A stretch of DNA of 64,000 bases from Nitrospinota bacterium (GTDB lineage Bacteria > Nitrospinota_A > UBA7883 > JACRGQ01): NCBI GenBank assembly GCA_016212275.1, contig JACRGR010000032.1, positions 367 to 64,366 of the forward strand, in the 5' to 3' direction. This document shows positions 51,472 to 54,449 of this stretch, in pieces (positions within the stretch are counted from its first letter, which is position 1; the number at the start of each line of letters is the position of its first letter). Under the pieces are notes generated by a model. The model ran no database searches. It saw only the letters and a program-made list of their open reading frames with translations, and had not been told where the DNA came from. Both the position numbers and the translations under genes were made by a program.

Positions 51472-52490
51472 CCGTAAACCTGAAGGACCTCACGTTCGCT
51501 CGGCAGGACGAACTTATCGCCGCGCTGGGGGAACCGAAGTTCCGCGCCAAACAGGTGCGCGACTGGCTGTACGCGAAAAACTGCCGCGACATAACCCTTA
51601 TGACCAACCTCTCGAAACCACTGCGCGAAAAACTGGCGGTGGAGCATACCGCCGAAGGGCTGAAAACCCTGCACCGGCGCGCCGCGGCGGATGGGACGAT
51701 CAAATACCTCTTCGGGCTTGCCGACGGGCTGAGCGTGGAAACGGTGTACATTCCGGAAGAAAAGCGCAAGACCGTCTGCGTTTCAACACAAGTGGGGTGC
51801 AAGTTCTCCTGCGCGTTTTGCGCCACGGGGAGCCAAGGGTTCACCCGCAACCTGTCGCTGGGCGAAATACTCAACCAGGTGATCGAGGCGCGGGTGGACG
51901 CGGGCGACGTGACCAATGTGGTGTTCATGGGTATGGGGGAGCCGCTGGACAATTACCAAGCGGTGGTGGAAGCCGCGCGGATGTTGAATGCCAAAGAGGG
52001 GTTCAATATCGGCGGACGGCGCATCACCATCTCCACGGCGGGGCTTGCCCCGCAAATCGAAAAACTGGCCGGGGAAGGATTGAACGTGAATATCGCCGTA
52101 TCGCTCCACGCGGCGGATAACGCCATCCGCACGCGGCTGATGCCAATCAACAAGAAATTCCCGGTTGAAAAACTGATGGATGCCCTCACGCACTACCCCC
52201 TGAAAGAGGGGCGCAGAATAACGATGGAGGTGATCCTCTTCGACGGCGTAAACGATTCGGCGCAAGACGCGAAAAAGCTGGTGCGCGCCCTGCACGGACT
52301 TCGCGCGAAGGTGAACCTCATCCGGTTCAACCCGGTGGCGGGCGCGGAACTGCAACCCTCCCCCAGAGAGCGCGTGGAACAGTTCAGGCAATCGCTGGAA
52401 AATAGCGGATTGGACGCAACCATACGGATAAGCAGGGGGGGAGACATCGAGGCGGCCTGCGGTCAATTAAAGTCAGCAAAAATGGGGTAG
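51468..52490 (+). CDS. rlmN: Dual-specificity RNA methyltransferase RlmN
   Basis: CVSTQVGCKFSCAFCATG, VFMGMGEPL, SLHA, IEAACGQL. Confidence 0.96.
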   Translation: MTVNLKDLTFARQDELIAALGEPKFRAKQVRDWLYAKNCRDITLMTNLSKPLREKLAVEHTAEGLKTLHRRAAADGTIKYLFGLADGLSVETVYIPEEKRKTVCVSTQVGCKFSCAFCATGSQGFTRNLSLGEILNQVIEARVDAGDVTNVVFMGMGEPLDNYQAVVEAARMLNAKEGFNIGGRRITISTAGLAPQIEKLAGEGLNVNIAVSLHAADNAIRTRLMPINKKFPVEKLMDALTHYPLKEGRRITMEVILFDGVNDSAQDAKKLVRALHGLRAKVNLIRFNPVAGAELQPSPRERVEQFRQSLENSGLDATIRISRGGDIEAACGQLKSAKMG

Positions 52491-52567
52491 CATTTCCCCA
52501 TATTTTATTAGTATTCAATACATTCAACCAGATGAAGTCAATTGAGTCTAATCTAAAACACCACAAA

Positions 52568-52585
52568 TGATACGAAAACGTATCA
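52568..52585. promoter_or_regulatory. Palindromic candidate enhancer (UAS) for a sigma54 activator
   Basis: TGATACG-AAAA-CGTATCA about 190 bp upstream of the predicted +1. Confidence 0.5.
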
Positions 52586-52720
52586 CTTTTTTCAGTTATA
52601 TATAATCATTTGTTTTCATTGATATTTATTTAATATAAATCATTAAGTGCGGCAAAAAGGTTTCATTTAAATATAGAGTTATGGAAGTGCAAAAATAGAA
52701 AATCTATACTCCACTAAATA

Positions 52721-52733
52721 AATCAATCAGTTG
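52721..52733 (+). promoter_or_regulatory. IHF site
   Basis: AATCAATCAGTTG matches WATCAANNNNTTR, immediately upstream of the -24 element. Confidence 0.7.
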
Positions 52734-52738
52734 ATATT

Positions 52739-52755
52739 TTGGCACGCCGCTTGCT
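52739..52755 (+). promoter_or_regulatory. Consensus sigma54 promoter
   Basis: TTGGCACGCCGCTTGCT matches TGGCACG-N4-TTGCW. Confidence 0.88.
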
Positions 52756-52765
52756 AAATAGATAA

Positions 52766-52867
52766 GTGGAACAACGCTTCTCGCCAGAGAGGCTAGTTTC
52801 GTTAGATCACCCTCTAACCTCCCCTTAGAAAAGGGAATCATCGCCCGATGATTCCCTTTTTATTTTT
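52766..52867 (+). ncRNA. Candidate sigma54-dependent small RNA (~100 nt)
   Basis: Bounded by the sigma54 promoter and a strong terminator; 5' hairpin and C/U-rich single-stranded stretch. Confidence 0.7.
52829..52867 (+). terminator. Intrinsic terminator (potentially bidirectional)
   Basis: AAAAGGGAATCATCG-CC-CGATGATTCCCTTTT then TATTTTT. Confidence 0.88.
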
Positions 52868-52945
52868 CCGCCATATTATATCGCATTGAAACCGCCATGC
52901 GTAAAACCATATCGGAAAGCGGAAAAGAAAGAAGGCGGGAATTAG

Positions 52946-53230
52946 TTAGACCTCTTGCACCGAGCAGAAAACGGAGCACCGGTCATAGGTGCCGCTCTGG
53001 GCGCAACTGGCGATGATCTGGAACTTGGCATCGTAAACAAGGCTGTTACGGTGCCGTTCCGCCATGAACCAGCAGTAGGTGGCGATTGGAACATGCCGCG
53101 CGGAGGAATACGAATCCGCTTCCACGGCGAAGGGGCACACCAGCCGTTCCCGCTTCAGGAAATTGAAAAGGGAGTTCCCGGCGGGGCTATCGGAACCGCA
53201 CGAACTCAAAAAAACCACGTTTTGTTCCAT
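52946..53230 (-). CDS. Small Cys-rich hypothetical protein (94 aa)
   Basis: ATG 1 nt after the HD-GYP stop; MEQNVVFLSSC...CPF...YCW...CAQ...CSVFC. Confidence 0.65.
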   Translation of the reverse strand: MEQNVVFLSSCGSDSPAGNSLFNFLKRERLVCPFAVEADSYSSARHVPIATYCWFMAERHRNSLVYDAKFQIIASCAQSGTYDRCSVFCSVQEV

Positions 53231-53231
53231 G

Positions 53232-54449
53232 TTACGCCATCCCCATGTATTGGAGCAGATTGATCCCATACGCATCCGCTTTCTCATACCCGGTTATTTT
53301 GCCGTGGCCATGGTCGGGGTCCGATAGGTCAACATCCTTTGGCCGTATCTTCGCGTTTTTCCGGGGATCGTACACCAAGCGCACCTTCGGCAGGTGCGTC
53401 CCTTTGGCGGAGGGTTCCAGCACCAGCGCCAAAAAGCCGCTTTCCAGCCGCACCAGCGAGCCGGAGGGATAGATGCCGACGCATTTGATGAAGTGCTCCA
53501 CCATTTCCTTTTTGAAATGGTACTGCGCCCATTCGTACATCTTGCGCAAAGCCTCCGAGGGGGTCAGGCCCTTGTGGTAGCACCGGTCGGACGTTATCGC
53601 GTCGTACACGTCCACCACCGAGGCCATCTGGCCTATCGGCGTTATCTCCTCCCCCTTCAGCTTAAAGGGGTAACCGCTCCCGTCGAACCGTTCGTGGTGC
53701 TGAATCATCACGCTCACCGCGTTCGCCGAAATGTCGTTAAAATTCTTCACCGAGGTTTTCCCCAGCAGGACGTGGCTTTTCATCATGTCGAATTCGCCGT
53801 CCGAGAGTTTGCCCGCCTTGTTCAGCACCTCGTCGGGCACCTTCATCTTTCCCAAATCATGGAGCAAGGCGCCGGTGGCCACCTCGCGCACCTTCTCCTT
53901 CTCCATCTTCATGGCCCGGCAAAACGAGATCATCAAAATGCAAACATTGACGGAATGCTGGAAGGTGTATTCGTCCCGGCTCTTGAGCTGGCTCAGGCAT
54001 ACCAGCGCGCTGGAGTTGCGGAACACCGAGTCCACCAGGTTGTTCGCGGCGTCGTCCACCACGGCGAAATCCACCTGCTTGCCCAGTTTCACGTCCCCCA
54101 TGATGCTGGTGACCACCTTTTTCGCCTCGTCGCGCACTTCCTTGGCCTTGGTCACTTCCTCCATGAAAGAAAGCGGGGCGTCTTCCCGAATCGCTTCCTT
54201 GGCAACCGCCATGATCTCCTTTTCCACCACCTTTTTCACTTCGGCAAGCGGAAGCGCGTCCGCCACGTCTTTGCCGCGGGCCGTGTCTATGTACACTTCG
54301 CGGATGTGGTTCGCGAGTATCTTTTGCACCATCGCGTCGTCCGTCACCATCAGCGACCGGCGCATGAACGGCACTTCCATCCATCCGCAGTCGAAATCGT
54401 GTATGTACATACCGGGCTGTAACTGCTCGGTCTTCACTTTCTTTATCAC
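53232..54449 (-). CDS. HD-GYP c-di-GMP phosphodiesterase with DUF3391-like N-terminus
   Basis: LQPGMYI, YTFQHSVNV, HDLGK, HHERFDGSGYP, DVYDAITSDR; GTG start with GGAGG. Confidence 0.93.
   Translation of the reverse strand: MIKKVKTEQLQPGMYIHDFDCGWMEVPFMRRSLMVTDDAMVQKILANHIREVYIDTARGKDVADALPLAEVKKVVEKEIMAVAKEAIREDAPLSFMEEVTKAKEVRDEAKKVVTSIMGDVKLGKQVDFAVVDDAANNLVDSVFRNSSALVCLSQLKSRDEYTFQHSVNVCILMISFCRAMKMEKEKVREVATGALLHDLGKMKVPDEVLNKAGKLSDGEFDMMKSHVLLGKTSVKNFNDISANAVSVMIQHHERFDGSGYPFKLKGEEITPIGQMASVVDVYDAITSDRCYHKGLTPSEALRKMYEWAQYHFKKEMVEHFIKCVGIYPSGSLVRLESGFLALVLEPSAKGTHLPKVRLVYDPRKNAKIRPKDVDLSDPDHGHGKITGYEKADAYGINLLQYMGMA

What the first reader, a model, noticed from the sequence alone, without database searches (positions are those of the whole stretch)
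52560..52867. Complete sigma54-dependent small-RNA locus hidden in an intergenic region
Seen, in canonical order: palindrome TGATACG-N4-CGTATCA, AT-rich spacer, IHF consensus, perfect TTGGCACGCCGCTTGCT, predicted +1 at G52766, hairpin CTTCTC-GCCA-GAGAGG, C/U-rich ATCACCCTCTAACCTCCCCTT, then a strong terminator. No long ORF follows on this strand. Known: Qrr, GlmY/Z and CrcZ are sigma54 sRNAs, and CU-rich seeds pair with SD sequences. Inference: a new trans-acting sRNA with an anti-SD seed (CCUCC), converging on the PilZ/HD-GYP operon. A 20-codon leaderless GTG ORF (MEQRFSPERLVSLDHPLTSP, 52766-52828) spans the same region, so a dual-function RNA or micropeptide is possible.
Basis: partly seen in the sequence, partly recalled or inferred. 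Interest (0 to 1): 0.8.

Follow-up and report, generated by a model that had tools for sequence, protein, structure and literature searches.

The report
New sigma-54 small RNA in Nitrospinota
This intergenic stretch holds a small non-coding RNA gene, conserved in one uncultured family of Nitrospinota bacteria, that is switched on through a sigma-54 promoter with two enhancer sites and carries an invariant C/U-rich stretch suited to block ribosome-binding sites; its targets and activator are still unknown.

Summary
Window 52568-52867 carries two 18-bp enhancer-like sites, an IHF-like site, a perfect -24/-12 sigma-54 promoter, and a ~100-nt RNA made of a 5' stem-loop, a 28-nt invariant C/U-rich element and an intrinsic terminator.

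The evidence is comparative. A covariance model finds the RNA in 13 of 33 genomes of the phylum: the window's genome and 12 of 13 others of its family, 0 of 19 outside it. Five more variants come from metagenomes.

Across 19 distinct copies:
- the -24/-12 elements are present in 19/19;
- a proximal enhancer site lies at -100..-122 in 19/19;
- a distal one lies at -183..-190 in 14/19;
- both helices covary (16 of 22 pairs with compensatory changes);
- the core CCCUCU-N-ACCUCCCCUUA never varies.

No Rfam family matches. Hfq was found in 0 of 14 family genomes.

Not supported:
- The 20-codon ORF exists in only 2 of 14 copies.
- The PilZ/HD-GYP neighbours are not conserved; rlmN lies upstream in 10 of 19 loci.

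Not resolved:
- No target with conserved pairing was found; spoVG is the best candidate in this genome only.
- The activator among 17 enhancer-binding proteins is unidentified.
- No expression data could be had.

This is a new member of a known kind.

The parts
52568..52585 (+). Distal enhancer-like site (UAS), perfect palindrome TGATACG-AAAA-CGTATCA, centre about -189 from the predicted start
   Evidence: Read. A weight matrix trained on 7 other genomes only ranks it first in the whole 2.19-Mb genome (23.5 bits, next hit 16.2). An equivalent site has its centre at -183..-190 in 14 of 19 copies.
52648..52665 (+). Proximal enhancer-like site TGCGGCAAAAAGGTTTCA, centre about -109
   Evidence: It is the third-best hit genome-wide for a matrix trained on 12 other copies (20.6 bits). 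An equivalent site has its centre at -100..-122 in 19 of 19 copies.
52721..52733 (+). IHF-like site AATCAATCAGTTG between enhancer and promoter
   Evidence: It matches the recalled consensus WATCAANNNNTTR exactly. Among 14 copies, another exact match occurs only in G003a. One-mismatch sites at -58 occur in G004, G010 and G003b. Support is moderate, because the region is AT-rich.
52740..52755 (+). Sigma-54 promoter, -24 TGGCAC / -12 TTGC
   Evidence: It is the only perfect consensus match in the window. GG-N10-GC with flanking consensus is present at the same distance from the RNA in 19 of 19 copies. An rpoN gene is present in the genome.
52766..52867 (+). Predicted small RNA, about 96-102 nt; the +1 at G52766 is inferred from the promoter geometry and not mapped
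   Evidence: Covariance model R1 scores it at 110.7 bits. MFE is -40.9 kcal/mol with z = -7.05. No Rfam family reaches threshold.
52768..52800 (+).
   Evidence: A 5' stem-loop starting 1-4 nt after the predicted +1 is folded in 13 of 14 copies; in G001 the SL1 stem starts at nt 10 inside an outer helix that starts at nt 1. There are four unrelated stem sequences. All 7 modelled pairs show compensatory changes.
52802..52829 (+). Invariant element TTAGATCACCCTCTAACCTCCCCTTAGA, the putative seed with CCUCC anti-SD core
   Evidence: The core CCCTCT-N-ACCTCCCCTTA is identical in 19 of 19 copies. CCUCCCC is predicted unpaired, mean probability 0.88, minimum 0.55.
52828..52867 (+). Rho-independent terminator: 15-pair stem, 4-nt loop, T run
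   Evidence: In the model alignment, 9 of its 15 pairs show compensatory changes and 96-98% of cells are paired.
52766..52828 (+). 20-codon GTG ORF, judged not to be a gene
   Evidence: An ORF of 20-21 codons exists only in G000 and G004, that is 2 of 14 copies. The other 12 copies have no ORF, or unrelated short ones.

Best explanation
Window 52568-52867 is an independent gene for a ~100-nt non-coding RNA, restricted to one uncultured family of Nitrospinota.

Inferred mechanism:
1. An NtrC-type enhancer-binding protein binds two 18-bp sites centred near -189 and -109.
2. DNA bending at an IHF-like site brings the activator to sigma-54 RNA polymerase held at the -24/-12 promoter. Transcription starts near G52766 and ends at the intrinsic terminator.
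3. The RNA has a protective 5' stem-loop and a terminator hairpin. Between them lies a 28-nt invariant C/U-rich element whose CCUCCCC core is unpaired.
4. This element most likely base-pairs with purine-rich Shine-Dalgarno regions of several mRNAs and blocks translation initiation, without Hfq.

Shown here in silico: the gene, its conservation, the promoter and enhancer architecture, the covarying structure, the lack of coding potential, and the failure to find Hfq.

Inferred only: transcription itself, the start site, the activator, base-pairing as the mode of action, and the targets.
For: Distribution:
- Model R1 finds the RNA in 13 of 33 genomes of the phylum: the window's genome and 12 of 13 others of its family, 0 of 19 elsewhere.
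- One genome carries two copies.
- Five further distinct variants were found in metagenome contigs.

Promoter and enhancer:
- The -24/-12 elements are present in 19 of 19 copies.
- The proximal site lies at -100..-122 in 19 of 19; the distal site lies at -183..-190 in 14 of 19.
- In the 6 copies not used to build the matrices, both best hits fall at these same positions in 6 of 6.
- The window's own distal site is the top hit in its genome for a matrix built without it.

Structure:
- 14 of 14 copies fold as 5' hairpin, middle element and terminator, with z from -4.9 to -7.2.
- On 19 copies, 94.5% of cells are paired and 16 of 22 pairs have compensatory changes. 0 of 500 shuffles reach this, and slid controls stay at or below 62% paired.

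Seed:
- The core is invariant in 19 of 19 copies and the CCUCCCC stretch is predicted unpaired.

Machinery and known families:
- rpoN is present, with 17 enhancer-binding proteins and 4 HU/IHF-family genes.
- Hfq was found in 0 of 14 family genomes.
- No Rfam family matches.

Precedents, from passages read:
- Qrr1 has a sigma-54 promoter with two upstream activator regions (PMC10162802).
Against: - There is no expression evidence of any kind.
- No target was found whose extended pairing is conserved. The best translation-start match in this genome is spoVG, with 11 contiguous pairs. Its orthologues give 9, 8 and 7, and 6 in the other seven, which is little more than the SD itself. The one family genome without the RNA also has 6.
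- trpD (10 pairs) is not conserved, and yajQ (9 pairs) only partly.
- Words complementary to the seed are not enriched. About 7 copies of GGAGGTTAG were seen, against roughly 17 expected from base composition by hand calculation.
- A 28-nt invariant block is longer than a usual seed and could instead be a protein- or ribosome-binding site.
- No enhancer-binding protein gene lies next to any copy.
- None of the 17 reaches a curated NCBIfam cut-off, so the activator is unassigned.
- The alignment used for pair counts was fitted to the model, which favours pairing.
Confidence: 0.6

Rival explanations
1. The RNA acts on a protein or on the ribosome rather than on specific mRNAs. The invariant element would be a binding site or a mimic. 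Its GAUCACC...CCUCC...UU resembles the 3' tail of the organism's own 16S rRNA, so it could titrate a factor that recognises that tail, or compete broadly for strong Shine-Dalgarno sequences.
For: - 28 nt are nearly invariant across genera whose RlmN proteins are only 58-68% identical. This is more than most seeds need.
- One 16S 3' end in the assembly reads GGATCACCTCCTTTCTAAGG, and shares GATCACC and CCTCC with the element.
- No conserved mRNA target was found.
- UCUAA can pair with either flanking UUAGA, giving two alternative C-rich loops.
Against: - The likeness to the 16S tail is two short words and may be chance.
- No candidate binding protein is known.
- A long invariant pairing region used for several targets is, from recall, what Qrr RNAs show.
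- Target search here was limited to one whole genome plus three sets of orthologues.
Confidence: 0.15
2. It is a dual-function RNA or a micropeptide gene, encoding the leaderless 20-codon ORF at 52766-52828.
For: The ORF exists here, and as 21 codons in G004.
Against: - It is absent from 12 of 14 copies. Starts, frames and lengths differ, or no ORF of 10 or more codons exists.
- Conservation follows RNA pairing with compensatory changes, not codons.
Confidence: 0.02
3. It is a cis-acting element: a leader or attenuator of a downstream gene, a 3' element of rlmN, or an antisense brake on the convergent HD-GYP/PilZ operon.
For: - rlmN lies upstream on the same strand in 10 of 19 loci.
- In this genome an HD-GYP/PilZ operon converges on the terminator.
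Against: - It has its own conserved promoter and enhancer 100-190 bp upstream.
- A strong terminator follows directly.
- Downstream genes differ; the largest shared downstream group covers 4 of 19 loci.
- HD-GYP and PilZ are near no other copy.
- 9 of 19 loci lack rlmN upstream.
Confidence: 0.04
4. It is a chance cluster of motifs in AT-rich spacer DNA and is not transcribed.
For: A single promoter match in 64 kb is not significant alone. No RNA data exist.
Against: The same ordered architecture, with fixed spacing, covarying helices and an invariant core, recurs in 19 distinct copies across at least 10 genera of the family.
Confidence: 0.03

Closest known systems
Qrr1-5 quorum-regulatory RNAs of Vibrionaceae (Rfam Qrr)
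   Same: - About 100 nt.
- Sigma-54 promoter with two upstream activator regions between about -175 and -60 (PMC10162802, passages read).
- A long invariant unpaired region, and several copies in some genomes (recalled). Here one genome has two copies.
   Different: - No Rfam match at any threshold.
- The enhancer half-sites here differ from the LuxO sites as recalled.
- No activator gene lies next to any copy.
- Hfq, on which Qrr depends (recalled), was found in 0 of 14 family genomes.
- The phylum is different.
CJnc230 (FlmE) of Campylobacter jejuni
   Same: It is 98 nt, with two stem-loops flanking a conserved single-stranded stretch that holds an anti-SD motif. It is RpoN-dependent and represses targets (PMC11187230, abstract and passages read).
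   Different: - CJnc230 is cut out of the RpoN-dependent flgE mRNA and also has an RpoD promoter. The RNA here has its own sigma-54 promoter with enhancer sites.
- The seed here is CCUCCCC within 28 invariant nt, against CCUU in 12 nt.
- No sequence relation is known.
GlmY/GlmZ of Enterobacteriaceae
   Same: Small RNAs with sigma-54 promoters (PMC3045617, listing and abstract only). The GlrR activator and IHF sites are recalled.
   Different: - There is no Rfam match.
- GlmY acts by sequestering the protein RapZ, and GlmZ activates glmS (abstracts in the listing).
- Here a C/U-rich anti-SD element points to repression.
C-rich-seed small RNAs of Hfq-independent bacteria (RsaE/RoxS, RNAIII loops, RepG); recalled, not tested
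   Same: Unpaired C-rich motifs pair with G-rich ribosome-binding sites without Hfq.
   Different: Those RNAs use sigma-70-type promoters and are unrelated in sequence and lineage. The comparison rests on recall only.

Membership tests
Any Rfam 15 family (Qrr, GlmY_tke1, GlmZ_SraJ, CrcZ and others) | Score at or above the family's gathering threshold | tested here: not met
   There were 0 matches at gathering score over the whole window. The best sub-threshold match over the locus is L20_leader, 24.1 bits against 58.7, driven by the terminator.
Sigma-54-dependent promoter | -24 GG and -12 GC elements with fixed spacing, conserved in position | tested here: met
   TGGCACGCCGCTTGCT lies at 52740-52755. 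GG-N10-GC with consensus flanks is present in 19 of 19 copies.
Sigma-54-dependent promoter | Host encodes RpoN and enhancer-binding proteins | tested here: met
   The genome holds one Sigma54_DBD gene and 17 strong Sigma54_activat genes.
Sigma-54-dependent promoter | Upstream activator sites about 100-200 bp from the promoter | tested here: met
   Two 18-bp sites lie at fixed positions: 19 of 19 for the proximal and 14 of 19 for the distal. They were recovered in 6 of 6 held-out copies.
Sigma-54-dependent promoter | Transcription depends on rpoN and an activator | not testable with these tools
   This needs a reporter assay or RNA data from an rpoN mutant or a heterologous host.
Trans-acting base-pairing small RNA | Own promoter and terminator, non-coding, conserved structure | tested here: met
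Trans-acting base-pairing small RNA | Conserved, accessible seed | tested here: met
   The core is invariant in 19 of 19 copies, and CCUCCCC has a mean unpaired probability of 0.88.
Trans-acting base-pairing small RNA | Targets with complementary sites conserved across genomes | tested here: inconclusive
   For spoVG, cytochrome c, trpD and yajQ orthologues, extended pairing is not conserved family-wide. Only one whole genome could be scanned.
Trans-acting base-pairing small RNA | The RNA is expressed | not testable with these tools
Qrr family | Dependence on Hfq (recalled) | tested here: not met
   The Hfq Pfam family was found in 0 of 14 family genomes. Ten of them are at least 90% complete, and the control rang in 5 reference genomes.
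Qrr family | Activator gene beside the RNA gene, as for qrr1-luxO (recalled) | tested here: not met
   No enhancer-binding protein lies within the flanks of 23 loci. Only receiver-domain matches were seen, in one genome.

The most novel reading that the evidence does not exclude
The invariant element is a bistable mimic of the ribosome's anti-Shine-Dalgarno tail. UCUAA pairs with either flanking UUAGA and so exposes one of two C-rich loops (UCACCC or CCUCCCC). When an environmental signal activates its sigma-54 enhancer, the RNA competes with 16S rRNA for the strongest G-rich ribosome-binding sites genome-wide. That would be a global, Hfq-free translational brake rather than a regulator of a few targets.
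Probability: 0.1. Interest if true: 0.75.

Novelty: new member of a known kind. Interest (0 to 1): 0.5.

Why it matters
Nitrospinota include the main nitrite oxidisers of the ocean and are almost unstudied genetically.
- Two literature searches turned up no paper on a small RNA of this phylum. Four papers hold both search words, and the two that were listed are on other subjects.
- Rfam has no matching family.

The locus offers three things:
- a ready-made, well-delimited regulatory module (enhancer sites, sigma-54 promoter, RNA) that can be tested in a heterologous host;
- a handle to deorphanise one of 17 enhancer-binding proteins;
- an example of sigma-54-driven riboregulation in a lineage where Hfq was not found.

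It also supplies 19 sequences with covariation, enough to seed an Rfam family and annotate the RNA in metagenomes.

Tried and rejected
- **RNA-seq evidence.** No RNA holder was listed for the locus, so expression is untested.
- **Earlier findings of this scan.** Nothing by place, sequence or words.
- **Activator.**
  - No enhancer-binding protein gene lies beside any copy. The receiver-domain proteins next to the G010 copy are a REC-HATPase protein and a hybrid kinase, not EBPs.
  - None of the 17 EBPs reaches an NCBIfam equivalog cut-off.
  - The distal palindrome pattern occurs elsewhere in the family no more often than its reversed control, 11 against 10 hits. No second regulon member was found that way.
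- **Second proximal-like site.** One lies 71 nt upstream of another sigma-54 promoter in this genome (C26), ahead of a 30-codon ORF. It is not conserved at DNA level in relatives, and no such pairing was seen in 9 cytochrome c loci of relatives, whose 1.5-kb flanks may not reach it. A third hit (C38) is part of a sigma-70-like promoter of a CarD-like gene.
- **Targets.**
  - Unconstrained RNAduplex over 1906 gene starts gave long loopy duplexes and mostly internal starts, so it was judged uninformative.
  - Exact 9-mer complements gave 177 sites, mostly inside genes or repeats.
  - A 14-mer complement with up to 1 mismatch found only the RNA genes themselves plus 3 other sites in 14 genomes.
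  - Orthologue checks of spoVG, cytochrome c, trpD and yajQ showed no family-wide conservation.
- **Chance matches.** An exact seed match in a Deltaproteobacteria MAG (L021) and one metagenome contig (L140) lack promoter and structure and get no model hit.
- **Papers.** Supplementary files of papers were not consulted.

Full report
**What is in the sequence.**
- The perfect palindrome TGATACG-AAAA-CGTATCA lies at 52568-52585.
- An AT-rich spacer follows.
- AATCAATCAGTTG at 52721-52733 fits the recalled IHF consensus WATCAANNNNTTR exactly.
- TGGCACGCCGCTTGCT lies at 52740-52755. It is the only perfect match to the recalled sigma-54 consensus in the 64-kb window.
- The usual 12-nt distance from the -12 C puts the start at G52766. 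This is an inference.
- The hairpin at 52776-52793 is the tip of a longer 5' stem-loop, 52768-52800.
- The C/U-rich stretch follows, then a 15-pair terminator at 52828-52861 with a T run.

The RNA folds at -40.9 kcal/mol, z = -7.05, and 0 of 200 shuffles fold as well. No sigma-70-like promoter was found on the + strand. The promoter match alone is not beyond chance: with up to 1 mismatch there are 2 matches against 0.76 expected, and 19 of 100 shuffles do as well. The case therefore rests on comparison.

**Known families.** Rfam 15 gives nothing at gathering score over the whole window. With permissive thresholds over 51500-54000, the best hit is L20_leader at 24.1 bits against a threshold of 58.7, and it aligns mainly to the terminator.

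**Distribution.** The window lies in a 2.19-Mb, 81-contig, 83%-complete genome, in which BLAST finds one copy.
- BLASTN finds relatives in 11 of 13 other genomes of the same family and in 0 of 47 outside it.
- A covariance model built from 8 copies (R1) finds the RNA in 13 of the 33 genomes held for the phylum. These are the window's genome and 12 of 13 others of the family, and 0 of 19 from eight other families. One genome has two copies. The one family genome without a hit is 86% complete.
- An exact 19-base scan of one genome for each of 185,579 species returned 11 stretches. Ten are this RNA gene, in MAGs titled Nitrospinota or Nitrospinales (7), 'Nitrospirae bacterium' (2) and 'bacterium' (1). 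The eleventh, in a Deltaproteobacteria MAG, has no promoter or structure.
- A metagenome scan returned 7 stretches. Six are hit by the model; five of these are new variants and one equals the G005 copy. The seventh is a chance match.

This gives 19 distinct copies.

**Promoter and enhancer.** Positions are measured from the predicted start.
- All 19 copies carry GG-N10-GC with consensus flanks.
- All 19 have a site of the type TGCGGTA-N6-TTACA centred at -100..-122.
- Fourteen of 19 have a palindrome of the type TG(A/C)TACG-N4-CGT..CA centred at -183..-190. The five without it are the four genomes of one genus, which instead carry a third palindrome near -95, and G002.
- The two site types share the outline TG-N14-CA and lie about 80 bp apart.

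Two controls speak against over-fitting.
- Matrices built without the window's sites rank its distal site first in the whole genome (23.5 bits, next 16.2) and its proximal site third.
- In the six copies not used for the matrices, the best-scoring distal and proximal sites fall at -183..-190 and -106..-112 in 6 of 6.

The IHF-like site is less certain. Among 14 copies, exact matches occur in G000 and G003a, and one-mismatch sites at -58 occur in three more, all in AT-rich DNA.

**RNA structure.** Each of 14 copies folds into a 5' stem-loop, a middle element and a terminator, with z between -4.9 and -7.2.
- The 5' stem uses four unrelated sequences in different genera.
- It starts 1-4 nt after the predicted +1 in 13 of the 14 copies, which fits that start. 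In the G001 copy it starts at nt 10, enclosed in an outer helix that starts at nt 1.
- On the 19-copy model alignment, 94.5% of cells are standard pairs and 16 of 22 pairs show compensatory changes. No shuffle of 500 reaches the observed values.
- Sliding the partners by 1-3 columns drops pairing to 50-62%. The alignment was fitted to the model, which favours pairing; the slid controls share that bias.

The middle element, TTAGATCACCCTCTAACCTCCCCTTAGA (52802-52829), is nearly invariant. The core CCCTCT-N-ACCTCCCCTTA is identical in 19 of 19 copies, and CCUCCCC is predicted unpaired with mean probability 0.88, minimum 0.55. UCUAA can pair with the UUAGA on either side, giving alternative loops UCACCC or CCUCCCC. 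These letters never vary, so the small hairpins cannot be tested by covariation.

**Coding potential.** The 20-codon GTG ORF is present here, and as 21 codons in G004. The other 12 of 14 copies have no ORF of 10 or more codons, or unrelated ones in other frames. The micropeptide reading is rejected.

**Context.**
- Upstream lies rlmN (Radical_SAM plus RlmN_N).
- Downstream, on the other strand, lie an HD-GYP-type protein (DUF3391 plus HD_5), a 204-residue protein without Pfam match, and a PilZ protein.
- rlmN precedes the RNA on the same strand in 10 of 19 loci.
- HD-GYP, PilZ and their neighbours are near no other copy.
- The largest shared downstream gene group covers 4 of 19 loci.

The convergence on the PilZ/HD-GYP operon is therefore a feature of this genome only, and a leader function for a downstream gene is unlikely.

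**Machinery.**
- The genome has one rpoN, 17 strong enhancer-binding proteins and 4 HU/IHF-family genes.
- None of the 17 reaches the cut-off of a named NCBIfam equivalog.
- None lies beside any copy of the RNA.
- The distal palindrome pattern is no commoner in the family than its reversed control outside the RNA loci.

The activator therefore seems to have a very small regulon and remains unassigned. Hfq was found in 0 of 14 family genomes, ten of them at least 90% complete, while the control rang in 5 reference genomes.

**Targets.** I called 1908 genes in the window's genome with a home-made codon-usage caller.
- Unconstrained duplex energies were uninformative.
- Counting contiguous Watson-Crick pairing in SD-bearing start regions gave spoVG first: 11 pairs, GGGAGGUUAGA directly before AUG. 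Then came trpD (10), and yajQ, a cytochrome c and others (9).
- In orthologues, spoVG keeps 9, 8 and 7 pairs in three genomes and 6 in seven, including the genome without the RNA.
- trpD is not conserved.
- yajQ keeps 8, 8 and 7 pairs in three genomes.
- The cytochrome c keeps only its SD.

No target is shown. spoVG is the best guess for this genome only.

**Comparison with known systems.** By function the closest are three.
- Qrr RNAs have a sigma-54 promoter with two upstream activator regions (passages of PMC10162802).
- CJnc230 of Campylobacter is 98 nt and RpoN-dependent, with two stem-loops around a single-stranded anti-SD stretch (passages of PMC11187230).
- GlmY/GlmZ have sigma-54 promoters (abstract of PMC3045617).

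It is a member of none of them. There is no Rfam match, the enhancer sites differ, no activator gene is adjacent, and Hfq was not found. Two literature searches for small RNAs of Nitrospinota found none. Supplementary files were not seen, so a transcript list there could have been missed.

**Verdict.** This is a real, conserved, previously undescribed small-RNA family with a complete sigma-54 control region. I put about 0.9 on the gene being real and non-coding. I put about 0.6 on the whole statement, including anti-SD base-pairing without Hfq. The activator, the signal and the targets are unknown.

Noticed in passing
G000 contig C64, about 78493-78589, minus strand (L061:1454-1550), outside the window: A second, diverged element with the same layout lies directly after the stop codon of a 236-residue ORF without Pfam match. 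It has a hairpin, then 15 bases identical to the seed (TCACCCTCTAACCTC), then CCCCTT and a terminator. It aligns full-length to model R1 at 22.1 bits and has no sigma-54 promoter. It could be a 3'UTR-borne sibling RNA. Read on the other strand, it could be a 15-nt target site behind an OppC-like permease gene. It was not found in relatives by the 14-mer scan.
   Followed up: partly
G000 contig C26, minus strand, about 17271-16960 (L080): Another AT-rich intergenic region holds a proximal-type enhancer site (19.8 bits) 71 nt upstream of a sigma-54-like promoter (CGGCACATCAATTGCT). It is followed by a 30-codon ORF for a hydrophobic peptide (MINVKDF...) and a terminator, upstream of two cytochrome c genes. 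It is not conserved at DNA level in the family.
   Followed up: partly
G000, several contigs (e.g. C23:555, C27:1749, C53:27677 and 34423, C57:4269, C64:31480): Composite palindromic repeats contain CCTCCCCTT-loop-AAGGGGAGG next to TCCCCTCCTT-loop-AAGGAGGGGA hairpins. The 9-mer CCTCCCCTT occurs 73 times against about 24.5 expected. One arm equals part of the RNA's seed, so these repeats could be decoys or targets, or simply share composition.
   Followed up: partly
G000 contigs C43, C69, C33, C1, C37, C26: The terminator-like palindrome behind the C26 peptide gene (GAGAGACCCTTTTTCGGGAAAAAGGGTCTCTC plus flank) is a dispersed repeat, with at least 7 further copies at 82-94% identity.
   Followed up: no
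G000 contigs C39 (minus strand) and C72 (plus strand): The assembly holds two different 16S rRNA 3' ends...GGATCACCTCCTTTCT and ...GGAATACCTCCTTTCT. One may come from another organism in the bin.
   Followed up: no
window 52946-53287, minus strand: A 113-codon ORF without Pfam match overlaps the 3' end of the HD-GYP gene by 55 nt. A terminator-like hairpin on the minus strand lies at 52993-52975. Whether this ORF is a gene is unclear.
   Followed up: no
G003 (L013 and L015; named MAG contigs L024 and L018): One family genome carries two copies of the RNA gene. Their RNAs are nearly identical but their upstream regions differ. One copy lies behind rlmN and one elsewhere, and each has its own -24/-12 and both enhancer sites.
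   Followed up: partly
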